Source of the DNA: Mayamaea pseudoterrestris
Taxonomy: Eukaryota
Reading direction: 5' to 3'
DNA length: 64,000 bases
NCBI GenBank assembly: GCA_027923505.1
Contig: BROI01000011.1
Coordinates: 310,001 to 374,000, forward strand
Each line of letters opens with the position of its first letter. The stretch's first letter is position 1. A program made the translations under genes and the position numbers. Shown here in pieces: positions 20,778 to 44,579 of the stretch. The notes under the pieces were generated by a model. It was not told the origin of the DNA and made no database searches. It was given only the letters and a program-made list of their open reading frames with translations.

Positions 20778-20812
20778 TACCTTAAGGTAGCCTCGGAGAT
20801 ACCCGAGTCAGC

Positions 20813-21890
20813 ATGGCTGAACCAGCCCAAGGAATCGTTCCTGCAAGGACTGACGAGGAGCGATGGAAAGATGAGCGCTGGAACAAGAAGCCTGCGGCGA
20901 TCCCCAAGTTGGATAAAGACAAGAAGTTTTGGACTTGGAAGATGGAGATCGAGGCGTGGCAAGTTGCGCATGACTTGGACAAGGTAATGGATCCAAGCGG
21001 ATGGGCGGACCTGCCGACGCGAGAAGAACAGCCAAATCAATCGTACGCCAACAGGCGAGCCGTCAAGATGAACAAGGTAGCCATGGCGCAGTTAATCATG
21101 GCGCATGGCGACGGAGACAAGGGAGCGGAGTTCCTCTTGATCATTACGGAATCAAGGACGGAAGCGTGGCCGACGGGCAAGGCAAGTGACGTCATGAAGA
21201 AGCTGATCGAACAATATCAGCCGACCGATCAAGTTGCCCAATTAAAGTTGATGGATGACCTTAGCAGTCTCTCGATGCGAGACAGCCAAAATCCAACCAA
21301 GTTGTTCCTAAAGGTAGCAGAGCTGGAGAGTCAGTTTCTAGCGTCAGGAGCAAAGCTCGAGGAGCGTCAAGTCGTTCCTCATATCATCAAGGCCTTACCG
21401 GAGCGGTACAGCGGACGAGTGTCGGCCATGTTTGAAAAGCACAAGGAGCTAACCAAAGCAATGATACGCGAAGGCGTAGAGGCAGAATATCGCCTCCAAG
21501 TGGCGAAAGGCGCCATCAAGGAAGACGACGATGAAGATGAAGATGAACAAGCTCTCTTTACTCAATCGTCGATCGGAAACCCCAAGGGCTGCTGGCTTTG
21601 CGGCAGCACGGAACACAAGAAGAAGGACTGCCCAAAGTATAAAGGGAACGGCGGCGGCGGCGGAGGCAACAGAAGCAGGTCGAAGAAAAGATTCCAAGGA
21701 ACGTGCGACGAATGCGGAAAGCAAGGGCACAAGAAAGAAGACTGCTTTCATCTTGAGAAGAACGCCTCCAAGCGCCCCGCTTGGTTCAAGAAGATCTTGG
21801 AGAAGAAGAATGAGTCGGCAAATGTCACTTGTGACGACGAATTCTTCATCATGGCAACCAAGGGCGTCGCGGAGGTCGACGACGAAGTTG
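20813..21890 (+). CDS. gag: Copia Gag
   Basis: FWTWKMEIEAW; capsid-like IIKALPERY; two CCHC knuckles (CWLCGSTEHKKKDC, CDECGKQGHKKEDC). Confidence 0.9.
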
Positions 21891-24800
21891 TGGTTTGCCG
21901 ACAACGGGTGCACCGAGCGCCATAACGAAGTCAAAAGAAGCAATGTATGAGACAAGGGCAGCAACAAGCGTCGATAAGATCAAAGTCGGGAACAGTGAAT
22001 ACGTACATCCCGAGCTTGTTGGAAAGTTGCGAGGCACAATCGTGGATAAGGACGGCAAGAAGGTTGGAAACTTGTCGTTGGATCGAGTCAGTTACTCGGA
22101 GTCAGCCGTCGGCAACCTCATTCCAGTCGGAAAGATGATAAAGGAAGGTTGACGCGCTGAAGCAGTCAATAGATGGACTGGAGTTAAGCAAAGGAAAGCG
22201 CAAGTTAGTCTTCGATGTGACGGTACAAGTCGGCAGCGGAGTCTTCCACGCTATGCGAGTCAAAAGGACGCCGACGACGGCAGAACAAGCAACAGTCGCG
22301 GCAAACGCAAACAGAGTCGTTTCTTACCAACAAGTGCATGAAGAGTTTGGCCACATGGGCAAAGCAGCGACTCGAGCGACAGCGAAGCACTTAGGATGGA
22401 CGCTAACTGGAAAGATGAATCCATGCGTCTCTTGCGGCGTAGCGAAGGCGCGCCAGAAGGATATCGCTCGAAAGGAGCCAGCCGAGAAGGCAAAGACACC
22501 AGGACGACGCATCTACTTGGACTTGACGACGCCAAAGGATAAAGAAGGCAAGAATCTGCCAGGCAAGTTGAACGGTCGATGCATCGTGGACGAGGCGACA
22601 GGATTCAAAGTTGTCGACTTCTTCGCAACCAAGAACGCAATGGTGGAACCAACCTTGAACCTGCTTAGAGAATGGAAGCACAAAGGAAGGGAGGTTGAGT
22701 TTCTCAAGGATGGATAACGCTGGCAGAACAAGAGTCTTGCGAGGCAAGCCAAGGCAGAGGGACTCGTCAAGCGCATTGAATGGACAGCGGCAAACACGCC
22801 GCAACAGAACCACAAGGCAGAAACCTGCTGGCGCACACTCAAAGGGCGTTCAAGAGCTATAGCATACAGAGCAAACGTACCAGAGAAGCAGAGGCAGAAG
22901 TTCTTTGCAAGGCTAGTAAAGCATGCTAGCAAGTTGGATGGACTCACCATGGTCGAGTTGAATGGGGAAATGAAAACACGCTATGAGCACTTTGGCGAAA
23001 AGATTCCACGCTTTGTTAAGTACATGAGGTGTTGGGGCGAGGCGTGCGTGCTGACGAAAGGTGTCAAGAAACCGGGAATGGAATTTGACAAAGGCGCAGT
23101 CGGCATGTTGGTAGGCTTTCCGGATGACCATGAGGGAGACGTCTATCAAGTTTGGAATCCCAAGACGAATAGAGTTGCAGAGGTTAGAGATGTAACGTTC
23201 CTAAACAAGTGGTATTTCCAAGAAACGATCAAGGAGATAGCCGACTTAAAGGAGAAGGAAGGCATCGATTGGGATCTTGACACCCCAAGAGGTGCGACTC
23301 ACGACGCGCAAGCCAGCGACAGTGAGGAAGAGGAGAGTGTCAACGGTGACGTTGACAACGTGGCATCAGCAAACGAGCGAGCTGTCACAAAGATTGACCA
23401 TGGGGAAGGAAGAACAATAACTTCGATCCGGGCGCGTTGTAATACCAAGGCAACGATTGATCGAGCAAGTAACGCTGGCGTATCAGCTGGCGACCCAAGA
23501 ATGCGCGTTGGCGATGCTGGACTGTGAGCTTACGCTCAACGCGGCAATCATCGAGGAGATGGAGGAAGGCGAGTGCTACACGCCGGCGCGCGACGAGTTA
23601 GCGCTCGTTGGCGCAGGGATTGGCGATGGCATTGCGCATACATCAGAGCTACAAGTAATGAAGTTCAGCGAGGCAATGGCGAAGGGACCAGTCGCTGAAT
23701 GGCAGAAGGCGGTTGACGACGAGCATGATCGAATGCTCAAGTACAAATGCTTCAAAGAAATCCCACGCTCGCAGCTTCCTGAAGGAACGAAGCTGATCGA
23801 CACGACATGGGCAATGAAGCAAAAGGCAAACGGAACAAAGCGAGCAAGAATGGCGGTCAGGGGATTCCAGCAGATCGAAGGAGTCCATTACGATCCCAAG
23901 TCGGTGTCGGCGCCTGTCGTGAATCTATCGACGACGCGCATCATGTTGGTATTGATGTTGATGGCACGCTGGGACGCGCACATTGTCGACGTGCGAGGAG
24001 CATTCTTGCAAGGCAAGTTCGAAAACGACGAAAAGATTTACATTAAGATACCACAAGGATTCGAAAAGCATTATAAAGCAGACAGCGTGTTGCAGCTGTT
24101 GGCGCCAGTGTACGGATTGATACAAGCGGCGTACTGTTTCTATTTGGTGTTGGTCAGAGCGTTCGACAACCAAGGATACGGAAGGAGCAAGGCCGATCCA
24201 TGCCTCTATTATCAATGGGGCGAACAAGGATTACATCTTTGGTCGAGTCATACGGATGACTGCTTGTCGGCCGGAAAGGATATCATCACAGCGAAGAACA
24301 AATTCATGAGCGAACTCGACTGCGAGGACATTGGCGAGTTGAAAGAGCACATCGGCTGCAAGATCGATATCAACAAGGAAGAAGGATGGTTGAAGATAAC
24401 TCAACCAGTCGCAATTCAAAGACTCAAAGACGAGTTCAATATACCCGACGAGCTCGATGAGGAGAGGCTTCCGGCGTCACCGGGAAGCAAGTTAAAGAGC
24501 GGCGAAACAATCGTTGGAGCGCAGGAGCATCACGAGTTTCGCAGCGGCGTTGGCATTGTTCAATGGATTAAAAGAGGCTCGAGACCAGAGATAAGCAACG
24601 CTGTTAGAGACGTTGCAAGGCGTCTACAAGGACCAACGGAAGCGCATGTGAAAGCGAACCATCGAATCATGCGCTACTTAACGAGGACTCCGGAGCGTGG
24701 ACTCGTCCTCAAGCCATCGAGGCAATGGGATGGCACACCAAGCTTTAAGTTCAGATTGAAAGTGATTACGGACTCATCATACGCGTCGGATCCAGACACA

Positions 24801-25235
24801 AGAAGGAGTCCAGGAGGCTACAGCACGTTTCTAGAGGACGCGCCAATCGTTCAATGCTCAAAGATGCAAGACTTTGTCACGCTGTCGCCCACGGAGGCGG
24901 AGTTAGTGGAGATGACGAACGGAGCGCGCGAGCTGTTGAGCCACAAGCGATTACTGGAGTCGATTGGATTACAAGTCGAGCTCCCAATGAAAGTTATAGG
25001 AGACAACAAGGGCGCGTTTGATCTAACGAACAATTGGTCGACGGCCGGCAAGACGCGTCATATTGACGTGCGATATTATTTCCTTCGAGAGTTGAAGGAG
25101 AAAAAGATTATAGACATTGAATGGATTGGAACCGACGACAATTGCGCCGATATCTTTACAAAGAATCTGGGCGTGAAGGCGTTTAACAAGCACGCAAAGG
25201 TGTTCGTCGGCGACGATGAGTACTTTGAAGATTAA
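21887..25235 (+). pseudogene. pol: Copia Pol (protease, integrase, RT, RNase H) broken by about six single-base indels as assembled
   Basis: Reconstructed LWFAD-TGA protease; HEEFGH...CVSC zinc site; integrase YLD, MDNAG and TPQQNHKAE; RT RARMAVRGFQQ, VDVRGAFL, VYGLIQA, HTDD; RNase H DSSYASD, SPTEAE, DNKGA, HIDVRYYFLRE, ADIFTK. Confidence 0.92.
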
Positions 25236-25256
25236 GTACATCGGATCAGAGGAGAG

Positions 25257-25526
25257 TGCTGAGAATCGGTGATTAAACAGGTGATCCTCAGTACTATGGC
25301 CTACATCCCAGGGCATTGGTAAAGATGCGGGATCGACTGGCTGCGTTGCAATGAACAGGACAGTTAGCTATAGAGACTCGGAGACACTCTTGGAGAGGTC
25401 AAGATTCCAAGAGTTACGGCGGTCGCTTAGGATAGAATAAGCTCACTCTTTTATAGCGGATCTTTTGCAAGCGAATAGGAGAGGTTTATATCGTAAATTA
25501 CAAGTACATTTGGAGCAATCTCAGCA
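25257..25526 (+). repeat. 3' LTR (270 bp)
   Basis: TG...CA ends with perfect 8-bp inverted termini TGCTGAGA/TCTCAGCA, preceded by the polypurine tract. Confidence 0.95.
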
Positions 25527-25577
25527 GGCACATCATCCAATGCAAGTTGCGACCAAAAATCTCAATATTGGACTCTC

Positions 25578-26714
25578 ATGTTTCCATTCCGAAGCAAGTC
25601 GCACGATTCGAGTGAGCAGACACCACTGCTTGTTGATATACATGCACGAACGGAACCACTGCTGCAGCAATTGGCACTCGAGCAAAGGTGCAAGCAGCAT
25701 TTTCTGACGAGCGTCGCCTGTCTGAGTTTCGTCTGCTCCCTGGCGAGTCTCGTAATGATGCTATATTATGGATCGAAACGAAATGATTACAATGAAAATG
25801 TTCCGTCTTCCTCGTCTTTTTGGCAATCGTCATCCAACAACAACACTACTCGTTACTCACACTGGTCAATGTGGACGAGCGCATTGACCAGCTGCCTCAT
25901 GGTGAGTCCACTCTTGGCGCTGCTGCAGCCAAAGCTGGTGCAACTCGAAGTGTGGAAACAAGGCGTTGCGGTGTATGCAAACGAGGTGAATCATTTGCAG
26001 CGCGACAACAAGATTCTCGCCAAGCAGGTGCAGCAGCGTCAGGATGCATTGACGCCGTGAGTAAAGAAACGCAATGAGTGATGTTGACATTTCTTGTGAG
26101 TGTTTATTAATAACGTTTTCTTACATCTACCATCTTGCTGACTCTTTTGCAGTTTGTCGGCCGTCGAGGAAGCTGTGGAAATACTGCAGTCGCTCGACGG
26201 CAACGAATCCATGGCAACGCTCGAGCAACGATTGTCAAACATGGAACGCTACTGGCGAGTATACAATGAAGGAAACGATGATGCTGTATCGTCTGACAAG
26301 GACAAGGACGACGATAATCATAGTTGTTACCACAAGGCAACCACGGAGCTCATGCAAACGTTGATTCAAGTGCTGGTTTCGGCTGCAAATACCACAGCAA
26401 CACGCGGCGGCGTCACGCGCTCAAATCGTGGCTACGACGACGACGATGACGACGTCTATTGCTTGCTGCTGAGCGACGCGGAACTGGATCAACTGGTGGC
26501 ATCGCTGTCCAGCATACGAAACGTTTGCGTGAATGGCGACGCACTCAAGCGACTCGTGGTGCAACATGGCCGCGGCGTTGCATCCGTCATGGAACTAATC
26601 AAGCAAGTCTTGCTGTACAATGAACATGATCCGCCCCATGAACATGCATTCTTCTACTTTGTGACGGAAAAAGAGGAGCAACAACGACACGTGAACGTTG
26701 CGAGGAGAAAATGA
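25578..26714 (+). CDS. Hypothetical two-TM coiled-coil protein; exons 25578-26056 and 26153-26714
   Basis: Intron 26057-26152 (GTGAGT...TTTTGCAG) joins the 160-aa and 186-aa ORFs in frame. Has an EQTPLL dileucine-like motif, two hydrophobic helices and a coiled coil. Confidence 0.7.
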
Positions 26715-33198: not shown

Positions 33199-36100
33199 CT
33201 ACTTGTTTTTGCCCTTCTTCTTGTTCTTCTTCTTATTCTTCTTGCTGATTCCGTTACCATTTCCATTAGCCGGAGCCTTTGCAGCGCTGAATGTGCCTTC
33301 GCTGGGAGTGAACACGGGTGCCTTTGGATTCATGGCTGCGACTTTTTCGTCACTCTTTCCCTTGCCCTTGCCCTTTTGTGCCTTGGCCTTTGGCTTGCCC
33401 TTTGTTATGTTAGCCTTTCCGGTGGCTGGCAAATCGGTTTCCGCAACAAAATGCTTAGCTAGCACTGAGCGGAGCTGTCCGTGAAATTCCACCGAGCGCT
33501 GCAGGGTGGCTGCAAAGGCAGCCGTCGCAACACCAAGGCGCATGCACCTTGCAATCGCTGGCCCGTAGTTGAATATGAGGAACAAGGAGGGGTGCACGTC
33601 CTTCGCGAGCGGATTCAGCACGACTAGTGTCTCCGCGAGCGATTGCTCCGTATAGTCCGGGCCGAACGTATTCTTTCGCAAGTCTTCCGTTGCATAGTTG
33701 CTCCAGAGCTCCAGTACAGCGGGTAGGTTCGCTTCAGCACTGCTGTGAGATCTGATTGTCCTCCATGTAAAGTCGAGAGCGAGGTCGGCAAGCTCCAAAG
33801 CAAGTGACTGACGAAGAAAGCTCATCGCCTTGGTCACTGGAATAAAATCAAAGCGATAGTGCTCATGGAGAGCAACAGCGAGATCCGGCAGCCTGTTGTC
33901 AAAGGCAAGCCGCATGAGAGACAGATACTTTTCCGGAGAGATGGCGTGATACGCGCCTTGGCGCCCTAGGCGAGTGACAAGCTCGTGTAAATGGCACGTT
34001 TTTGTATTGTCGCTGGTTTGTACCCAAACAGGAAGCTCAATAACGCCCGCGTCGAGTGAGACTTCCAACAGCTCGAGCGAAACATCATTCGGCACATGCA
34101 GCGCAATCTGGTAGGAAAGGAATGCACGGAGAAGCCATTTACTCCCAGCTGTTTCTGAATTAGTGGCGCCGATAATAAGACGACAACCAAGTCGGCGACG
34201 ATTCGATTCCTCAAAAAGGCCACGAAATGCGGGGCGCGGCTCGCCATTGTTAAACGACGGCTCCGCTAATTCAATTATGTCGGTGAACAGACGCATCTGA
34301 ATCAAAATACTCTCAAGGTTGTTATCACTTAAGCTTTCCAGGTGACACATTATCGCCGCATTATTCTGGCCGTCTTGTTTTAAAGTGTGCTGAAGGAAAG
34401 TCTTGCACCAGTTGTCAAGACGCGTAAATGGAGCGTTCGCGTCAACCTTCCCTTTCCTCTTGCTTTTTTGCATCGCAGCAGAGCCAAGCGTAATTGCTTT
34501 CGCGCGACGTTCTAGCCCTTTCATAAAATTGGTTTTGTTTGCCGGATTCCATTTCTGCGACCCAGTGACAATCAACAAGCACCATGTTGTCAGACGGGTT
34601 GTGTAAATTTTGTCAAACAGCCATTCCCAACCGTCGGTTAATGAAGGCTTTAGCATAAGGACAAGTGCAAGCGTCTCACTCTTTGTCCATTCCTCAAGCC
34701 GCTTCCGCGCAAATTGAGCAGCATGTGGTGCATCTCCATGTGACAAGAACCACCGTACCGCTTCTATCAACTGGCCCGCAAACCGTGTCACCAGCACACC
34801 TGTTACTTCAAGCAAGAATTGCTCATTACCAAAATGATATAGCAACAATCGATCAGCTTTGGCAAAATCGAATGACCAAAGTATAACAGAACGACTGAGA
34901 TGCTTCGCACTTTCTGGAGCAAAGTTGAGTAATTCTTCGCTCGGAGAACCTTTAACTTGTGATTCTTGGAGCAGCTTCACGATGCGCAGAAAGCTCCTAA
35001 TTTTATCGTGTTTTGTTGGAATCGCTTGAGCAAGGCACATGTTGACACAGCGTTCAAGAACTGTGGCTGACTTTTTTGTTAGTACTCCTCGCTGTTCCAA
35101 CTCAGCAAGCTGCGACCATAAAATGGAAGTGGCACAATCAAAGTCATGGGCTCTTAAATAACAGTCCACGGCCTTATCAAGGCATTTTGCATCACGGTGG
35201 TAATCGCCAACAATTGCAGGCAATACAAATGTAACGTCTTCAAGATCTTTGGTGGACGAACCCTTTAAAATGCAGCGCAGCTTTACATTGTCCCTCTCTT
35301 TCGACCAAATGTCGCTCATGGATGGGCTCTTGACGTCTTCTATAGTCAAATTTGTCCAATGTCCGCACTTGAGCGCGAGAATGATATACATCCTTCGGTC
35401 CATAACGCTCGCTTGATTGTCTAATGACTTGATGATCACGTCAGCTTTGCTCGAGGGCCAACACGAGTGGCGCTGGGCCAGCTGCGCCAGGTTGACAACT
35501 TGCTCAAACTCTCGACGAGAACAAAATTCGTCCATGGCATATCCGCATGCAGATTCAGCTCCGTCTCTTCCTTGAGAAATCAAAAGCCGAAATAGTGCAT
35601 ATTGCGCCCAACCCAAATCGCCAGAAGTTTCAAAACAGCGATGAGCGAGTTCATACTGCCCATCTTCAAACATATCCAATCCTTGTTGCTTCCATTCCTC
35701 GGGATGTGTATCTGTATCAAACCCTCGAAGTATAGTGTCAGCGCCTGTCGTCTGGAACTTGTATTCCAGGCTATCAAAAAAGGTTCTCATGGCAGAATCT
35801 CGACTTGGAACAAGTATAACAACTCTTCTTCGTCCACGTGTAATTGCAACATAGAGCTCGCGTAGCATCCTCAGTGATTGTGCGTGACCTGCACTCGTAT
35901 TCCATGCCTTGCGATCTAAATCAAAGACTACAATGACATCGTCAAACTCCAAGCCTTTGGAGTCAAGGCTTGACAGGACGAACGGATGATTTCCAGTCCA
36001 ATCCCTCGCTCGCTGCTCCAACAAATCGCTCCCAGAAAAAATTAGCGCTTGCTGGGCCCCCAACTTTATGGGCTCTAAGAAAGCCGACTCCATACAGCAA

Positions 36101-39100
36101 AGAAGGACTTTATAGTGAAGGTCCTTTTGCGCCACCTCTGGCTGTGCAAAGCCAATCGCCCCAGGAAAGTCGCGTTTGGCGACCTTCAAAATGGCATTCG
36201 CAAGTTCCAAAACGTCCTTGGTGGTTCGATAATTGACCAACAGATGCGCTACATTTTTCAGCTTGACATCAGGTCGGATAGTGCCGAGGACTTCCTTCAG
36301 TCCCTCAAAACTAAATGAACAGCCGGGTGTAATCATCTGAGCCGGATCGCCTGCACAAACCCAGTGAGGAGCAGTCGACGTCCTTCCGGCCAAACTGCAT
36401 AGGAGATAAATGGATGCGTATGACAAATCTTGCACCTCATCAAGATAAGCTGCAATTTATGAGAATGTCAGCATTATAAGAAGCAAAAGTGCTGAAGCTA
36501 TAATAATAAACGACGCACCTGATGAAAACAGCTCGAAGTTGTTATCCACGGTAAGTTTCGATCGTAGCCAAACCAGTAGCCTCAGTACGAGATCATGATT
36601 GTCAAAAAAACCATTGTCTCGCTTCCAAATTTTGTAACGAAGAAATATATCGTAAACAGAGTTGCGTCGGGACCGACCATCGCTTGACTTGCTCTCAATG
36701 TTACTCCGCTTTGTCAAACTATACTGTTCTCGCGTGAGCGGCATCAACTGTACTACCGAGTCGAGAGACCCCATAATCACCCCTCCAATCTCATTTTCGA
36801 CAAGCTGCATCTCCACGGGCAATGCGTCATGGGATGTTCTCGTGTTGACAAATCTTACAAACGTGCACAGGTTACTGGGGTGCAAGTCTTTCGCATACTG
36901 CCTCGAGAGAAAATCGAGCACGTCGTGGTACGTGAGAAAGCAAACGTCTGGAAGACTTTGATTGCTTGCGTTCTGCATGTCTCGATACTCTTGCGTAAGG
37001 CGTTTGCACAGTCGCGGCGACACGGTGATGAAGCACGGCGATCGTTCATCGACAGTGTCCAAATTCGAGTGATACGCAACATGTTGTAATAGGACCAACG
37101 TTTTTCCAGTACCTGAACGCGACTCAACGAGAAGGGGAGGACTCGATAAAGATACTCTTTCTTGAAGAGCATCCAATTGCACAGCGCCCGCAGGAAGAAT
37201 CGCATTAGAGCATATTGCCTTTTGTGTCTCATTATTAAGGGGCCAGGAGGAAAGCGGGTGGCTCAAAATGGGGCTCTCTGTCACATCGCTCAAATCAACT
37301 CGACTGGTCATAAGCAGTCCACTCAAATTTTGACGCACCATACATGCAAAGACGGCTGCAGGAATTTCAGGATGGCGTTGAATAAATTGGCGACACTCAT
37401 CAGGTGAGCCCACAAAATGAGCCTCAATAATAGGTTTATCCTGGCCTTCTTTTGCAAGCCAAACAACGTTCAAAGAACGTCGATATTTCGTCAAATACGA
37501 AATGTACCAATTCGGACCAGTCCGTGACGGAATGGTTGACCCCAATGCACCACAATCAGGAACTGAAATCGCCAGTACCGTATTAAGGGCAATATTTTTG
37601 TCGCACTCGCGCATTTTCTGAACGCAATCACAAAAGCGGGCGTTCATAACAGGCTTCCAAATTGTTACTTGGTCCCAATTAGGCGCGCTCCATGGCTGGG
37701 CACGAACTTTCGAAACATGTAAGAGTCCCTCGCCCTCGACAAACTCACAAAGCTTTCGCAGCGTCGACCTTGGTCCGAGCGATAAGAAAAAGCGACGCTC
37801 TCCAACAACTCTAACTAGCAGTTTCCCTCTCGTAAGACCAACGCACAATCGTTGCTCGCTGTCAACAAATCCAATTTGCCGAGTCCTGACGGTTGACAAA
37901 ATTACAATCTCGCCTTCTTGGCCCTGAAATGAATCTACAGTTGCTACTTCAATAGGCAGTCCAAGCCCTTCAAGTGATTCTTTCAACAATTTCACTTGTG
38001 AGCGGTAGGGCGCAATGACGATAATCCGGGGGTTGATATGACTATCGAGTATTCGAAGAATGTCTGGGTCAGTTTTTATAAGTGACTTGATTACCACCGC
38101 TTCGTACGGATTTCTATGAGAGTAAAAATCTCGTTCTTCTTTCCCGCGGCGCTGAGTGTCGACAAAGAGGAATGGCTGATCAACGCGAGGTTCCCGACCA
38201 AAAACATTGTCGCCTGATTGGATCCGATTCTTATAAAATGCGCGATTTGGAAATTTGAGAATTAGCGGATCCATTCTGTATTGAGTATCCAGCAGGTGGA
38301 CTGATTCGGGATAAAGGCGTTGCACCTTCTCTAACCAAGATATGCCGAATCCGGCAGTGGCACAGTCTGGGCTAATGACAGTCGCCGGCAGTTGGCACGG
38401 GTCACCGATGACGATAATTCGTTTGACGCCCGGAAAACTCGTCGCTATGTAAAAGTCAGACTCAGGCGTCTGGCCAGCCTCGTCCAGCATCAACGTCGCG
38501 GCTTCGTAATACTTTCGTAACAACCCAGATCCGGCTTGGTTAAGTGTGCAAAACGCGACTGACGCTGCTCCGAGGCAAGCTGCCATGAGACGACCATAAT
38601 TGTCTCCGTCGCTTATTGGACAGAGGGAGCGCAATTCTTCCATCGAGAAATGACTTCCAACCAAACGAAGCCACTCAATAAATTCCAGTCGGGCTTTCTC
38701 TTTGCGTGCTTCCAATGTCGCCTTTTGATTCTCAGCTTCAGTCTTAGCAATTAAATCGTTGATCATATCCAAATCACATAATAGGTTCCTGAATTTTTCT
38801 CCGCGGAGTTTGGGATTGAGAAACTGTACCGACGAATCGCAATTCTCCCCGTAAACCACAAGATTCTTTGAGTCGTATACGCCAGTCGCAAAGACTTTTA
38901 ACGCGATGTTTGCAACCGCGGCATTAGACGGCGCCGTAACAAGAACACGGTCTTCTTTAGCCGCTGCACAAATCATCGAAACAGCGGCTGTTGTCTTGCC
39001 AGTCCCAGGGGGGCCTTGAATGCAAAAGAAACCTTCAGTAAAGTTCCGTGAAGCAACGGTTGCCACCGCTTGACGCTGCGAAACATTCAAATGCTGAATG

Positions 39101-39648
39101 CTGTCCTCGTTAACGCTTTTGAGCACCTGCAGATTTCTTTCGACCGGTTGCAACATTTCCCTACGCATGGCCCAATGCGAGAGTGCGTCAACAGGCGCCT
39201 TTAATGCTTCAAGCACACGGACGGTCCCGGAGAGTGAAGCTACTTTCCATTTCGGAAACAGCGCATCGAGTTCAAACAAGTCTTTCCCACCGTCATACCA
39301 TATGAGTTTCCTTGTGTTCTTCCGTGGCAGAACCACTGCTATATTTTTCCGTGGCTGGTTTATTGTCGCGCACATAAGACAGACGTCATAAGGCCTTAAA
39401 TCGTCTACGTCAATTGTGGTCGTATCTGAACCTGTCTTTTCTTTTTCAAGTGATTCGGCAAACTCAAGTTGGACCATGTAGTAAAGCCGATCCATGTCTC
39501 CGGCGTCCAAATGATCGTTCAGTGGCTGGACATACCTTGGATTGGGCTTTACGTTCCCAAAACAAATTTGAAGTAGCAGCAGGTGCTGGTTCGAAAATGA
39601 GTGCGGCAGATATGGTCGAACTATGCGTTCAAACGCTTCGACGTCCAT
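33199..39648 (-). CDS. Double SF1 helicase: Upf1/DNA2/NAM7-like plus TRANK1/UvrD-like, with TPR-like helical tail; exons 39648-36519 and 36449-33199 (~2126 aa)
   Basis: Helicase 1: LNVSQRQAV, QGPPGTGKT, LDEAGQ, IGDPCQLP, LLDTQYRM, IAPYRSQ, TVDSFQGQE, VGLTRGK. Helicase 2: SRSGTGKT, YLDEVQD (restored by the 69-bp intron 36518-36450, GTGCGT...TTGCAG), AGDPAQ, NYRT, SKGLEFDDV, ELYVAITR. Confidence 0.9.
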
Positions 39649-39990: not shown

Positions 39991-42321
39991 TCAAGTCCGA
40001 AACAGTCGCATTGCTAAAACATCATGGCAAGGTTGAACGGCCTCTAACGTTGGTGAACTCGCCGATCCTGCCCAATCCGCATCATCAGCCAGTGATTGAC
40101 CCACTTTAACGCCAAGCTGCGCCGCCGCCTGCGCTTGCGACAAGACCTTGACACTCGCCAAGGGTCCCAACAAGTTGAGCCTGACTGCGGCCGAAACCAT
40201 GTCTCGCGCGACACAAAAGCCAACTAGTTCGCACGCCTCCTGCTCTGGTACTTGCAGCAAGGCTGTCGCGGTGCCAAACACGGTCGACAAATGCCCCACC
40301 GTATCGGATGCATCAATTTCACACTGGAGTTGTTGCAACACAATATGATCATTGGTACCGCCTCCGCTGGTTTCATTGCCGTTGCTCGACGTTATCAACT
40401 GGCTCACAACTCGCAGCAGACTTCGTCCCTGATCCAAGGACGCGCGACAAGCTGGCCCATTGCCGGCGAGAAACACGTGCGCGTTGCGGTCCATGCTGCG
40501 CCAGGCGGACGCAAAGTCACGATTGGAATCACTATTCGCCACAACATTCCTCGCCAGTCGATGCGACTGAACGACAAACGGCACTGCGCCTTGCACCATG
40601 GATTGCGTCGAAGATTTGATAAAGGTGAACAGATTGTGTTCGAGCGCATCACCTCCGTCACCATCTTGCAGTAAACCAAGCTGACTGGCAGCTTCGAGCC
40701 CGGCCGAATGCGCAAAACTGCCAACCGGCAAGGCCGAGTCTGCCAAAATGTAAGCAATCCAAGAGCGTGGAGCGGTGGATGCCGAGTTTAATTCCGATTT
40801 TAATGTCGTATTGCTTGCACTTGTAATAGAATCAAGACTTGCCTTTCTACCATTTTCATTCGTATAAATGCTGCTGCTCGTGGCCACTTTCGTCACTGGC
40901 ATTGTCGCCGACTTTGTCGCTCGTATGCGATCCTTGTAAAACTCCATTCCAAAGTCGTTTGCCAGCGGACGCAGACTGTAGTGCAAACATCGATACAAGT
41001 CCTGGTTGGACTGGGCGGCCCACTTCATCAAGTATATGGCATGATGGTCGTCGTTAATTGTATCATCATTATTGTTACTGCCATGACTTGAATCATCATG
41101 GAATGCATTTGTTGGTATCCGCGTCATGCCCAGAATGACTCGACCAGCCAGTGATTCCATAATTAAATCGTTGGACACTGCCGAAGGCAACCTGCCGCCG
41201 TGATGATTGCCATCATGTTGTTGCTGCTGCGGCGTTTCGTCATGTTGCTGTCGATGATTGCCGACTCTGACGCGCGCATGCGGCTGCATCAGTTGCGTTT
41301 GCAAGCGGCGACACTGCTCCACCACCATGCGCGTCCGTGGTCCAGTGACGAGCATGGAAACTGAACTAGCGAGTGAATCGAAAAGTCCAAGATGCAATGG
41401 CATTGAGTGTGATTGCATTACCAACGCATCCACGAGTAGCGATTGTTGACTTGCATCGTAGCAGCGCAGCTGCGTCTGGAGCAGCGAGTCGCTAATCGTC
41501 GTCGTTGTTGCATCACTAGCATTTGCACTTGCTCTTGCACTTATCCAGTCAATCACGACGCACGAGGCCGAAAAGTCGTTGATGTGGACACTCGTCACTT
41601 GCTCCAAGCGCGATCCAACCATGGTCACTAATGGATCGGGCGCCACGACGAGCAGCGCGTCGGCCTCCAACTCGTAGGTGGAGCGCATGCGAGTCATGGA
41701 TAATGGTAATTTTGTTGCTACTGCATTTTGATGTTGTTGCTCATTGTTACTGCGACGCATGGGATAGACGCGCGTATGTCCCTGCGTTAACAGTCCCAGC
41801 GTGGCTTGTCGTTTCACATGCACATTGACGTCCAAGTCGTCGCCACTCACCAAGCCGCCGCCGTAGGACGCTTGGTAGCAGATTGCGGCGCCTGCGTGAA
41901 TGACACTTAATGATTGGCATGGCACCAATCGCAGTGGTGATTGGTGCGAGAGTTTCGTCAAGTGAGTCTGTGGTCGAGACGTCTTGCTGTCATGGGGGCT
42001 GCCAAGTCGCTGCTCCACCGAAGCTTCCAACATTGCGATTCCATGCTGCTGATGGCGCCGCTGCTCCCCGTGTGCTTCCAAAATGACGACTCCATGCTGC
42101 TGATGACGTCTGTGCCGACCATGTGATGGGTGAGGGGTAGGACGAGGAGTTTTGGAATCATCATCATGACGTTGCTGCCGTACTGTCGCATGCAACGTTT
42201 CATCTCTTGTGGCTGTGTAATGAAGCAGAGACTTGGAGACGCGTGACTGTCGTGACGCTGGCTGCTGCCGTAGGAATGGTTGTCTCGATGACAATCGCTG
42301 GCCAAGCAGCGGTATCCTCAT
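39991..42321 (-). CDS. ureD-ureF: Fused urease accessory protein UreD-UreF
   Basis: UreD motifs SPLRL, YGGGLVSGD, LLTQGHTRVY, PDP, VIDW; UreF motifs LADSALPVGSFAHSAGLEAA, RASLDQGRSLL, GH, SAAVRLNLLGP and terminal RLFRT, all in one ORF. Start could be 42369. Confidence 0.9.
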   Translation of the reverse strand: MRIPLLGQRLSSRQPFLRQQPASRQSRVSKSLLHYTATRDETLHATVRQQRHDDDSKTPRPTPHPSHGRHRRHQQHGVVILEAHGEQRRHQQHGIAMLEASVEQRLGSPHDSKTSRPQTHLTKLSHQSPLRLVPCQSLSVIHAGAAICYQASYGGGLVSGDDLDVNVHVKRQATLGLLTQGHTRVYPMRRSNNEQQHQNAVATKLPLSMTRMRSTYELEADALLVVAPDPLVTMVGSRLEQVTSVHINDFSASCVVIDWISARASANASDATTTTISDSLLQTQLRCYDASQQSLLVDALVMQSHSMPLHLGLFDSLASSVSMLVTGPRTRMVVEQCRRLQTQLMQPHARVRVGNHRQQHDETPQQQQHDGNHHGGRLPSAVSNDLIMESLAGRVILGMTRIPTNAFHDDSSHGSNNNDDTINDDHHAIYLMKWAAQSNQDLYRCLHYSLRPLANDFGMEFYKDRIRATKSATMPVTKVATSSSIYTNENGRKASLDSITSASNTTLKSELNSASTAPRSWIAYILADSALPVGSFAHSAGLEAASQLGLLQDGDGGDALEHNLFTFIKSSTQSMVQGAVPFVVQSHRLARNVVANSDSNRDFASAWRSMDRNAHVFLAGNGPACRASLDQGRSLLRVVSQLITSSNGNETSGGGTNDHIVLQQLQCEIDASDTVGHLSTVFGTATALLQVPEQEACELVGFCVARDMVSAAVRLNLLGPLASVKVLSQAQAAAQLGVKVGQSLADDADWAGSASSPTLEAVQPCHDVLAMRLFRT

Positions 42322-42902
42322 GGTGGATCTGTGTGCGACGGAACGGAATTCACAGTGCCAGTGCGACATTTGTGATCGCCGATGGAGACGACCATGGTGG
42401 AACGAACGTTAGCAAGTGTTGTTTCACGTCTTCTTTTATTATTTAGCCGACTTGATGAACATGAATAGTAGATTGTCGTGACTTTAATCTAAAAGCATGC
42501 CATAGACCAATTGCTATACCAAACAGTATGCCTATAAAGCTGTCAGCTTCATACCCATTTGAAAAATAAGCGGGAACGCGGATATCAACCGGCGTGTATC
42601 CCGTGGTTTTACCGACCCATTGGCCACTCATCAGACTGTTGCGACTGCTGCATGATCGACCGGAGACGGACAAACTGACTGGGAACATTCACTTATTCTT
42701 CAGTGAGTACAGCTTACCTACCAAATTACCCAGTAAAGTCGATGTATTAGGCGCGCCATCCTTTAACCTGAACAGCACCTGCAAACAGATTCATCGAGTA
42801 GCTTCAGTGCCGCTTGTAATGCGGATGAGGGTTCCCCGTTACTCTTCAAAAGTAGCCTTAAAGAGTCTTAAAGTTTGCCGACGACGTTTTGACCGTGGCT
42901 GC

Positions 42903-44074
42903 TCATCGACGCTTCATCCCTCGCTTGGCGTTCCTGCGAGCACTCTTTGGAGTATTGGCGTGGCTCTTGTTGGATCCTTGCTTGTTGGTGTCGATGCCTT
43001 GATGGCCGCCTCGTCCGTTGGCTACAATGTACTCATCTGGACGAATGTCTCGTCCTTCATTGTTCCATACTGTCCTCCATTTCAACAGAGTCTTGCGCAC
43101 GTGATCTGGTTTAATGGCATTCAGTATGTAATTTGGAATAAATGGAATATCTGGTCTCAGACCATGGTTGGTCGCGCACGAGTGTGCGTCCCTGTAGCGT
43201 TTGCCTTGTCGACAAGGTCCTGCTCGCGACCTCTAATAGCGTTAACAGCATCATCCAAGGTCAATCCTGATTGGCGCTCTATAATTTGAACGGTGATGTC
43301 GTAGTCTTTGTTTGCAATACCATTGAGGAAATCTAGCAGCTTGATAGTGTCCGGCAGACCGGCATTCAACTGCTCCAATTTATGACAGCTTACCAAGAAC
43401 GTATTGATATAGCTGCTTGCCGTATGGTTCTCATCCAATCTTGCCTCTCGCAATCTCTGGCAATGGTACTGAATGAGGGAGCGTCGCGTTGGAGACGGCG
43501 TGTACCATTCGACTAACTTTTGCCACGCCTCGTATCCGTTTCGATTCTCAACGCCATCGACAATGTGATACGCATCACCATTAACGACGGCTAAAAATAG
43601 CATCAAGTAGAACGCTCTGTTTAGCGTCTGCGCGTTTACATCATTTGCGGCAGGCTCCGTTGTCAAGAGTGTTGCGTATAACGATTGATGGATCGTCCGC
43701 CTTGCCTTGATCTCCCAATTTTCCCAATCCAAATCGGCGCCCGTAAACGAGTCCAATGGAATCGTTGTAATCCAGAGATCGTTTTCTGGTGCAGCTGCTG
43801 GCGCTCCAGCAGGTTGCTGTGGGTTGCCTTGGTGTGACAGGTATTCACGAATCGTTGCCATTGTAGTCTCCGCCGTGAGCGCCTGACCCTTGGACACGAA
43901 TTCTCTAATGAGCTCAAGCTTTCGGTGCACCATGACAGTAGCTCCAGGCAAAGCATTCTCGAGGTCTCTACGTGATACTAGTCTTAGGTCATCGATTGAT
44001 AAAATCCCTGCTGCAGCCAAAGCAGCAATGTGCTCCGCCGTTAGATTCGCCAAGGCGATGACGACGGCGTCCAT
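42903..44074 (-). mobile_element. Stand-alone copia gag-like gene or relic (305-aa ORF 44074-43157 plus frameshifted tail)
   Basis: DWENWEIK, NGYEAWQKLVEWY, YINTF, FLNGI..YD are copia gag capsid-like motifs; SAM-like N-terminus. No pol or LTR pair seen. Confidence 0.65.
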
Positions 44075-44579
44075 ATTGATTCTCTTTTACTCGTCTCAGT
44101 AGTGCATTGATGCGTATTCTATCTTATAGACTGTAATGGCCTGTTAGCGCCCAGGACGGAAGATAGCAACAACCCGAGACGTCCTTTCGAACAACAACAA
44201 AGGAAAGTCCTCCGCCGTGTTTTCCATCAACCCGTGTATCGGCCTCTTGTGTTCTCGGCCAGTACCGTTGCGTCATTTGCAGCTATCACACCTTTCTTCA
44301 CCGAAAGTATAGCATAATCACTATTATCATACTTTCACTCTTTGATCAAATATGTCTGTCACAGAGTCTCAAGAAGCATGTCGCCTTGATGACAGTCGCC
44401 TCGCAAGGTGAGGCTGTCTGCTAGACTCGAGAATGAGCATGCCACTTCTACAACCGCTACAGATTTCGAAGCCCAACCATGTTGAGCATGAAGATGATTG
44501 GTCTGCTAAGAAAATACATATGCATAAGAAGAGTTAACTAATTCCCATAATAGATGATGAGATGCAGACTAACACAATA

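What the first reader, a model, noticed from the sequence alone, without database searches (positions are those of the whole stretch)
33199..39648. Giant double-helicase protein (Upf1-like plus TRANK1/UvrD-like plus TPR-like tail): candidate nucleic-acid-sensing defence factor
Seen: the 1063-aa and 1078-aa ORFs are one gene. A 69-bp intron containing an in-frame stop splits Walker B of the second helicase (SAYLDEVQD), giving ~2126 aa with two complete SF1 motif sets. Known: Upf1-like helicases (MOV10, ZNFX1, SDE3) are RNA surveillance or antiviral factors, and the second motif set matches the TRANK1/LBA1 type. Similar tandem architectures occur in plants and fungi, so the architecture may not be new, but I know of no characterised diatom example. 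Inference: two motors of typically opposite polarity plus a helical tail suggest a one-protein sensor/effector against viral or transposon nucleic acid.
Basis: partly seen in the sequence, partly recalled or inferred. Interest (0 to 1): 0.72.

Follow-up and report, generated by a model that had tools for sequence, protein, structure and literature searches.

The report
Twin helicase with hidden RelE-like domain
A real, spliced diatom gene joins two different helicase-type motors, a hidden domain shaped like bacterial RNA-cutting toxins and a helical tail, and some of its relatives are fused to an RNA-silencing polymerase, which points to RNA surveillance or defence but does not prove it.

Summary
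In detail: one gene (39648-33199, minus strand), one 69-nt intron, 2126 aa. Contigs of 3 of 4 public runs skip exactly this intron, and the spliced protein equals a database protein. (1) The linker between the helicases folds like RelE/ParE (pLDDT 88; best Z 7.8, all 18 rows with Z>=5 are RelE/ParE-type), so the back half is a RelE-like + UvrD-like + helical-repeat module, also found in plants, fungi and stand-alone bacterial proteins. (2) Four of the 22 closest relatives carry an N-terminal RNA-silencing RdRP with an intact DxDGD motif. They form a paralogous clade; this gene is in the RdRP-free clade. Helicase 1 is nearer Sen1/Upf1 than ZNFX1. Helicase 2 lacks room for a full 2B domain, so 'two motors of opposite polarity' is unshown. 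Best reading (0.45): an RNA-surveillance factor that feeds target RNA to small-RNA silencing. Rivals: RelE-type antiviral effector (0.25), housekeeping RNA helicase (0.2). The gene is single-copy, shows no defence context, and lacks two basic residues common in the family's RelE-like domain. The twin-helicase layout is common in plants; the RelE-like domain and RdRP link were not found in print. New variant of a known kind.

The parts
36519..39648 (-). Exon 1 (ATG at 39648; aa 1-1043 plus one base)
36450..36518 (-). 69-nt phase-1 intron, GT...AG, with in-frame TAA, just before Walker B of helicase 2; site shared with many relatives
33199..36449 (-). Exon 2 (to TAG at 33199-33201)
39094..39648 (-). 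N-terminal region aa 1-185; conserved in the family (mean 32% identity); in RdRP-fused relatives it follows the RdRP. Probably a stalk/1B-like part of helicase 1 (inference from position and recalled Sen1 layout; not folded)
37729..39093 (-). Helicase 1, Upf1-like SF1B (AAA_11 + AAA_12), aa 186-640, motifs intact; nearest solved relatives Sen1 and Upf1
37348..37668 (-). [quoted passage not shown]
35794..37188 (-). Helicase 2, UvrD-like SF1 ATPase of the TRANK1-like group, aa 821-1262, motifs intact, 2B region short; spans the intron
34483..35715 (-). Helical solenoid, TPR-like, aa about 1289-1699; confident model, mean 22% identity to relatives
33430..34482 (-). Distal helical tail aa 1700-2050; low-confidence model, barely alignable to relatives
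33202..33429 (-). Lysine-rich, low-complexity C-terminus aa 2051-2126

Best explanation
An RNA-surveillance factor tied to small-RNA silencing. Helicase 1 (Sen1/Upf1-like; 5'-3' on RNA by family, inferred) loads on and remodels a target RNA-protein complex. The RelE-fold domain binds that RNA or the ribosome on it and may or may not cut. The 2B-less UvrD-like ATPase and the fast-changing helical tail act as a switch and a recognition or scaffold arm. The product is handed to an RdRP, which is fused in one paralogous clade and would have to act in trans for this RdRP-free gene. Shown: gene structure, splicing, domain order, fold of the linker, existence and monophyly of RdRP-fused relatives, an RNAi tool kit in the genome. 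Inferred: substrate, polarity, any cutting, the RdRP partnership, and the target (transposon, virus or aberrant RNA).
For: RdRP (PF05183) fused in 4 of the 22 closest relatives, E 1e-80, 6e-79, 2e-68 and 4e-16 (partial), each with GGD[LY]DGDE. They group together (SH-aLRT 93, quick tree; 98/90 for the three included) and span Seminavis, Amphora and a CCRYP (recalled as Cyclotella) protein, so the fusion is old and kept. RelE-fold linker is an RNA-directed fold. The genome holds two Piwi matches, an adjacent pair of RNase III domains and one RdRP. Precedents: S. pombe Hrr1 works with an RdRP and C. elegans ZNFX-1 co-purifies with EGO-1 (PMC9276528, passages); Fusarium FgRdRP5 is an RdRP fused to AAA_12 (PMC11237814, passages). 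Helicases conserved at about 50% while the tail falls to 22% and less.
Against: This gene has no RdRP and sits in the RdRP-free clade. The fused clade looks nested among free forms (83/55, weak), so RdRP linkage may be a later specialisation of the paralogue. The fused RdRPs are only 23-25% identical to this genome's stand-alone RdRP and no fused-type RdRP was found here. No RdRP lies beside any of 19 metagenome loci, though only 3 have 8 kb upstream. Helicase 1 is not ZNFX1/Hrr1-like. Plant relatives have the same layout and none of those listed carries PF05183. No functional data.
Confidence: 0.45

Rival explanations
1. One-protein antiviral sensor-effector independent of RNAi: the variable helical tail senses a viral cue, the UvrD-like ATPase releases the RelE-like domain, which cuts mRNA on ribosomes and shuts translation; helicase 1 delivers it to RNA.
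For: Best structural match of the linker is the RelE domain of Cami1 (Z 7.8, rmsd 3.2, 103 aligned). RelE-like + UvrD is the layout of ArmD in the tested anti-phage system ARMADA II, whose Walker A is needed for defence (10.1101/2025.09.15.676423, passages). E. coli RelE can cut on eukaryotic ribosomes (PMC11980606, passages). Stand-alone bacterial RelE-like-UvrD-TPR proteins keep invariant K, K, E, R, R, H in that domain. The tail diverges fast. Chicken TRANK1 is induced by influenza infection (PMC8517014, passages).
Against: The diatom domain is far diverged from the bacterial one (profile probability 0.1%; only 6.8% to plants). This protein has T720 and P749 where 17 and 16 of 22 family members have K/R. 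Single copy, 5 of 6 coding differences in reads are synonymous, no family expansion here. Neighbours of the bacterial relatives show no consistent defence context (33 ORFs scanned).
Confidence: 0.25
2. Housekeeping RNA helicase: a Sen1-related enzyme in transcription termination, R-loop removal or ribosome/mRNA quality control, with a dead RelE fold as an RNA- or ribosome-binding surface.
For: Helicase 1 is closest to Sen1 among solved structures and groups with Sen1-like paralogues and plant tandem helicases (96/90). Single copy, apparently transcribed in 3 runs, mostly synonymous variation. Conserved intron site and motifs across relatives. ParE proteins share the fold without RNase residues (PMC11980606, passages).
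Against: The genome has 16 AAA_12 matches including a true UPF1 (L004) and closer candidates for Sen1, so core roles are filled. The family sits on long branches (0.9 and 1.87 changes per site). The RdRP fusion is not explained.
Confidence: 0.2
3. DNA-directed role: helicase 2 acts like UvrD/PcrA or GajB on DNA (repair, or sensing foreign DNA) with the RelE/ParE fold as a protein-binding module.
For: UvrD-helicase Pfam match; weak GajB, UvrD, Rep and PcrA profile matches; several ParE toxins among the fold matches.
Against: No full 2B domain; all matches far below family cut-offs; the flanking modules (Upf1-like helicase, RdRP in paralogues) point to RNA.
Confidence: 0.1

Closest known systems
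Plant DUF6469-AAA_11/AAA_12-UvrD-like proteins (annotated 'UvrD-like helicase ATP-binding domain-containing' or 'TPR and ankyrin repeat-containing protein 1-like')
   Same: Same order: Upf1-like helicase, RelE-like linker (profile link fungi-plants 69%), UvrD-like helicase, helical tail; 22-28% identity; same short motif IV-V spacing.
   Different: No DUF6469 match here; about 600 aa shorter; separate clades in both helicase trees; one origin of the tandem is neither shown nor rejected (AU p 0.34). No RdRP fusion among the plant rows listed.
TRANK1/LBA1-like proteins (fungal members seen here; animal TRANK1 recalled, not retrieved)
   Same: Helicase 2 motifs and downstream helical repeats; fungal members have the same upstream domain, linked to the bacterial RelE-like domain at 94% probability.
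   Different: No ankyrin or N-terminal TPR match here; an extra Upf1-like helicase. No animal TRANK1 was among the listed hits.
ArmD of ARMADA type II (RelE-like RNase domain + GajB-like UvrD helicase)
   Same: RelE-like domain directly N-terminal to a UvrD-family helicase.
   Different: ArmD is one of four required bacterial proteins with a methyltransferase; no direct sequence comparison was made; here the module is embedded between a second helicase and a long tail in a eukaryote.
RdRP-helicase partnerships: S. pombe RDRC (Rdp1-Hrr1-Cid12), C. elegans EGO-1/ZNFX-1, Fusarium FgRdRP5
   Same: Upf1-like helicase linked to an RNA-silencing RdRP; fused in 4 relatives of this gene.
   Different: Helicase 1 is Sen1/Upf1-like rather than ZNFX1-like; no NF-X1 zinc fingers; extra RelE-UvrD-TPR module; this gene itself has no RdRP.
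Cami1 (CARF-RelE) and RelE/YoeB/YafQ/HigB/ParE toxins
   Same: Fold and topology of aa 661-767.
   Different: 5-14% identity; catalytic residues could not be mapped; no antitoxin or CARF sensor; embedded in a 2126-aa protein.

Membership tests
Upf1-like SF1B helicases | AAA_11 + AAA_12 core with Walker A/B and motifs III-VI | tested here: met
   Above Pfam cut-offs, E 4e-34 and 6e-42; motifs intact
UPF1 orthologue | UPF1_Zn_bind and UPF1_1B domains; grouping with UPF1 | tested here: not met
   Neither domain matched; the genome's UPF1 is L004 and lies in another part of the tree
ZNFX1/Hrr1, MOV10/SDE3 silencing helicases | Helicase nearest to ZNFX1 or MOV10; NF-X1 fingers or MOV10 barrel | tested here: not met
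   ZNFX1 E 4e-16 against Sen1/Upf1 1e-37 to 1e-34; no such Pfam domains. No named MOV10/SDE3 sequence was in the tree
Senataxin/Sen1 orthologue | One-to-one grouping with Sen1; Sen1 N-terminal domain | tested here: inconclusive
   Sen1 is the best solved match but no SEN1_N match; own L005 scores higher on AAA_11; tree had no named Sen1
UvrD/PcrA/Rep SF1A helicases | Seven SF1A motifs | tested here: met
   All found; Walker A starts with S instead of G, invariant in 23 of 23 aligned
UvrD/PcrA/Rep SF1A helicases | Full 2B domain and family-level score | tested here: not met
   92 aa between motifs IV and V; UvrD_C matches only profile positions 295-346 of 350; 25-26 bits against cut-offs over 900
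UvrD/PcrA/Rep SF1A helicases | 3'-5' DNA unwinding | not testable with these tools
   Needs biochemistry
TRANK1/LBA1 | UvrD-like helicase of this subgroup followed by helical repeats | tested here: met
   Next-best hits after the close family are proteins so named in plants and fungi; tail model
TRANK1/LBA1 | N-terminal TPR and ankyrin repeats (recalled from the gene's name); orthology to animal TRANK1 | tested here: not met
   No ankyrin match; animal TRANK1 not retrieved, so orthology itself was not tested
RelE/ParE superfamily | [quoted passage not shown] | tested here: met
   Model pLDDT 88; 18 of 18 rows with Z>=5 are RelE/ParE-type by title or recall, best Z 7.8; Foldseek best E 6e-3, none at 1e-3; topology as stated in PMC11980606
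RelE-type RNases | Catalytic basic/acidic/His residues | tested here: inconclusive
   Family keeps R671, K684, K733, E742, H744; this protein lacks the common K/R at 720 and 749; no residue-level alignment to a solved RelE was available
TPR proteins | Tandem helical hairpins / TPR profile match | tested here: inconclusive
   Confident helical solenoid; Ctr9, Ski3, Naa15 matches have TM about 0.1 and rmsd over 27; TPR_2 below cut-off
Named anti-phage systems (Mokosh, Gabija, Prometheus, Hhe) | Full-length match or family cut-off | tested here: not met
   Only helicase-domain matches: MkoA 143-637, GajB E 1e-11; no NCBIfam cut-off reached
RdRP-fused paralogue clade | N-terminal PF05183 with DxDGD | tested here: not met
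   None in the protein or upstream (a UreD-UreF gene lies 340 bp upstream); none of this type in the genome

The most novel reading that the evidence does not exclude
TRANK1-like proteins of plants, fungi and diatoms (and perhaps animal TRANK1, not tested) are unrecognised RelE-UvrD-TPR machines related to stand-alone bacterial proteins and to ArmD of ARMADA: a eukaryotic branch of RelE-type RNase defence. In diatoms the module gained a Sen1/Upf1-like helicase and, in one clade, an RdRP, giving a pathway in which RelE-type cutting of translated RNA supplies templates for small-RNA amplification.
Probability: 0.25. Interest if true: 0.85.

Novelty: new variant of a known kind. Interest (0 to 1): 0.56.

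Why it matters
Nothing found in the searched literature gives TRANK1-like helicases a mechanism (0 papers for TRANK1 + UvrD + helicase; 0 for TRANK1 + RelE as whole words). A RelE-fold domain in front of their helicase, traceable to bacterial proteins, and a natural RdRP fusion in diatoms give two direct tests: RNase or translation assays on a 110-aa domain, and small-RNA sequencing of a knockout. It would also add a component to the sparsely described diatom silencing pathway (PMC2724275 lists only Dicer-like, Argonaute and RdRP candidates; passages).

Tried and rejected
Alternative GT-AG pairs that remove the stop exist (15 in all); only 36518-36450 is seen in contigs. No RNA holder is listed as such. 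Pfam and PDB sequence searches do not name the linker; the Atlas gave only unnamed leads under 0.9. A linker profile over 1.84 billion representatives found 87 proteins, 85 of which align to this family, and no RelE. Direct profile comparison of the diatom and bacterial domains fails; the link runs bacteria-fungi-plants-diatoms and its last step is weak (6.8%, E 0.005). The bacterial domain itself is RelE-like only by weak leads (Gp49 E 0.06 in 3 of 12; ParE_like 0.85; no PDB sequence match); it was not folded. No relative in viral contigs (0 of 80 pattern matches). No shared neighbours with 19 metagenome loci. No listed row (120 of 292 shown) or 86 (120 of 128) names Phaeodactylum or Thalassiosira pseudonana, but most rows are unnamed, so patchy distribution is not shown. 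The careful core tree did not finish (quick tree); the helicase 1 bootstrap had not settled; P0023 was left out of the helicase 2 tree because its gene model lacks Walker A. Whether this protein binds the genome's RdRP was not modelled and stays open. Anantharaman and Aravind 2003, which I recall describing RelE/ParE domains fused to SF-I helicases in prokaryotes, could not be read. The multidomain RelE review has no mention of 'helicase' in its main text; its Table S2 was not opened and may bear on novelty, as may the closed supplements of the two preprints. Nearby copia elements were judged unrelated.
Full report
Observation. The two minus-strand ORFs are in frame and separated by a single TAA. 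Removing 36518-36450 (69 nt, GT...AG, branch-point-like CTGAC) gives a 2126-aa protein with two full helicase motif sets. Contigs of runs X2, X3 and X4 skip exactly these 69 bases; X1 covers the intergenic DNA and is unspliced (3 of 4 runs, one study, kind not on record). The spliced protein equals database protein P0002, which its source names a hypothetical protein of the diatom Mayamaea pseudoterrestris. Relatives share the intron site: 34 of 49 gene-caller fragments that cover it break there, 14 read through, 1 ends earlier (five rows re-sorted by eye); in DNA, 7 of 17 loci with the Walker B motif show an AG acceptor in the same phase after non-homologous sequence, about 4 distinct sequences. 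The gene is single-copy; the only other match in the genome is a 25% relative on contig C21. Five of six coding differences in the reads are synonymous.

Anatomy. Aa 186-640 is an Upf1-like SF1B helicase. Its best solved relatives are Sen1-type (E 3e-37, 4e-35) and Upf1 (2e-34), then IGHMBP2 (5e-30); ZNFX1 is far behind (4e-16). The genome has 16 AAA_12 matches, among them a true UPF1. In a tree, helicase 1 of this family is its own clade (100/100), weakly beside two own paralogues (82/82), within a group that holds the plant tandem helicases and excludes UPF1 (96/90; bootstrap not settled; no named references). One origin with the plant tandem is neither shown nor rejected (AU p 0.34). Aa 821-1262 is a UvrD-like ATPase with all motifs. 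Only 92 aa lie between motifs IV and V (91-108 in the 35 of 37 proteins measured) and UvrD_C matches only the last 50 of 350 profile positions, so a full 2B domain is missing. The top helicase match of the model was HelD, which I recall as an SF1-like ATPase that recycles RNA polymerase rather than unwinding. Aa 1289-1699 models as a confident helical solenoid; the rest of the tail does not; matches to Ctr9, Ski3 and Naa15 are generic. Mean identity to relatives is 50% and 49% for the helicases, 38% for the linker domain, 22% for the solenoid, and the distal tail is alignable in 1 of 22.

Pfam and PDB sequence searches are blank. [quoted passage not shown] Against 48,161 chains, all 18 rows with Z>=5 are RelE, YoeB, YafQ, HigB, ParE or relatives (by title; Cami1 and four others by recall), best Cami1 at Z 7.8, rmsd 3.2, 103 aligned. 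Foldseek agrees in rank but has no match at E<=0.001 (best 6e-3). Z under 8 alone can mean a common arrangement; the agreement of all top rows is the evidence. The same position upstream of helicase 2 holds a related domain in other hits: bacteria-fungi 94%, fungi-plants 69%, plants-diatoms only 6.8%, diatoms-bacteria none. Stand-alone bacterial proteins of about 1410 aa begin with this domain, followed by the UvrD-like ATPase and TPRs (25 loci, mostly Spirochaetota; Pfam); they keep invariant K, K, E, R, R and H, have weak RelE/ParE leads, belong to no named system and have varied neighbours (33 ORFs). RelE-like + UvrD is the layout of ArmD in the tested system ARMADA II (10.1101/2025.09.15.676423, passages) and of a helicase beside some Tiamat genes (10.64898/2026.09.30.754977, passages). 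Whether the diatom domain cuts is open: the family keeps R671, K684, K733, E742 and H744, but this protein has T720 and P749 where 17 and 16 of 22 have K or R.

The first search gave 292 hits; the top 23 (this protein and 22 at 35-52% identity) form the close family, and the 7 with organism names are all diatoms; the rest are unnamed and are called diatom here by inference. Coscinodiscus adds a further centric diatom. Four of the 22 carry an N-terminal PF05183 RdRP with GGD[LY]DGDE. They form one clade (quick tree, SH-aLRT 93, 98/90 for three). This gene is in an RdRP-free clade with Epithemia and a second Seminavis protein (100/100), so Seminavis has both forms. Rooted on bacteria, the fused clade is nested among free forms, weakly (83/55), which suggests one gain of the RdRP. 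The fused RdRPs are only 23-25% identical to the genome's one stand-alone RdRP, and no fused type was found here. The genome has two Piwi matches and an adjacent RNase III pair. No RdRP neighbours 19 metagenome loci, of which 3 have long upstream flanks. Helicase-RdRP teams are known: Hrr1 and ZNFX-1 (PMC9276528, passages) and the fused FgRdRP5 (PMC11237814, passages). An earlier AI note of this scan (e1-7691100) describes the fused form in another genome; I saw it after finding the fusion and the fold, and it is not independent support.

How it most likely works. Best reading (0.45): an RNA-surveillance factor whose Sen1/Upf1-like motor engages a target RNA-protein complex, whose RelE-fold domain binds or cuts RNA or ribosome, whose short UvrD-like ATPase and variable tail switch and aim it, and which feeds small-RNA silencing, in trans for this gene and in cis for the paralogue. 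Rivals: an RNAi-independent RelE-type antiviral effector (0.25), a housekeeping RNA helicase with a dead RelE fold (0.2), a DNA-directed role (0.1). The first two together make a surveillance or defence role about 0.7 likely; no experiment or expression data bear on it.

Novelty. The RelE-like domain in these proteins and the diatom RdRP fusion were not found in ten literature searches (open-licence library only; one search was swamped by words beginning 'rele'), and one likely relevant paper could not be read. PMC3710099 (passages) did not bear on it. Verdict: real gene, new variant of a known kind, interest 0.56; the most striking member of the family is the RdRP-fused paralogue, not this one.

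Noticed in passing
window 39991-42408 (-): One 805-aa ORF holds both UreD and UreF urease accessory domains; it ends 340 bp upstream of the helicase gene, and contigs of X2 and X4 bridge the gap.
   Followed up: no
G000:C21 about 22000-26600 (L052:3018-7565, L002): A second, distant TRANK1-like multi-exon gene: MYND, RING, TPR, a RelE-like stretch by eye (20% profile probability to the fungal domain), UvrD-like ATPase, helical tail.
   Followed up: partly
L022-L046 (for example L023:8001-12242): Stand-alone bacterial RelE-like-UvrD-TPR proteins of about 1410 aa, mostly in Spirochaetota, in no PADLOC or NCBIfam family; two sit beside a metallophosphoesterase + AAA_27 pair, one beside an integrase, one beside a transposase.
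   Followed up: partly
proteins P0171 and P0193: The N-terminal part of the fused-type RdRP is joined straight to the RelE-like domain, skipping the polymerase core and helicase 1: deleted or rearranged forms.
   Followed up: no
proteins P0011, P0013, P0023, P0171: A Cys/His-rich, MYND-like motif lies between the RdRP and helicase 1, seen by eye; Pfam did not call it.
   Followed up: partly
G000:C5 105655-117299, 664089-665924, 833328-834276: Two equal-scoring Piwi matches 10.7 kb apart, the RdRP and the Dicer-like RNase III pair all lie on contig C5.
   Followed up: no
L018 (G000:C21:50375-53917); L014 and L015 (C6): An Upf1-like helicase with a weak MTES_1575 nuclease match about 27 kb from the C21 gene; and a near-identical pair of Upf1-like helicases 25 kb apart on C6.
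   Followed up: no
window 20786-25235 (+) and 43157-44086 (-): A copia-type LTR retrotransposon (gag, zinc knuckle, RVT_2) in several ORFs, and a separate copia gag ORF.
   Followed up: no
L056:7959-14390: An intronless 2144-codon member of the family in a metagenome contig.
   Followed up: no
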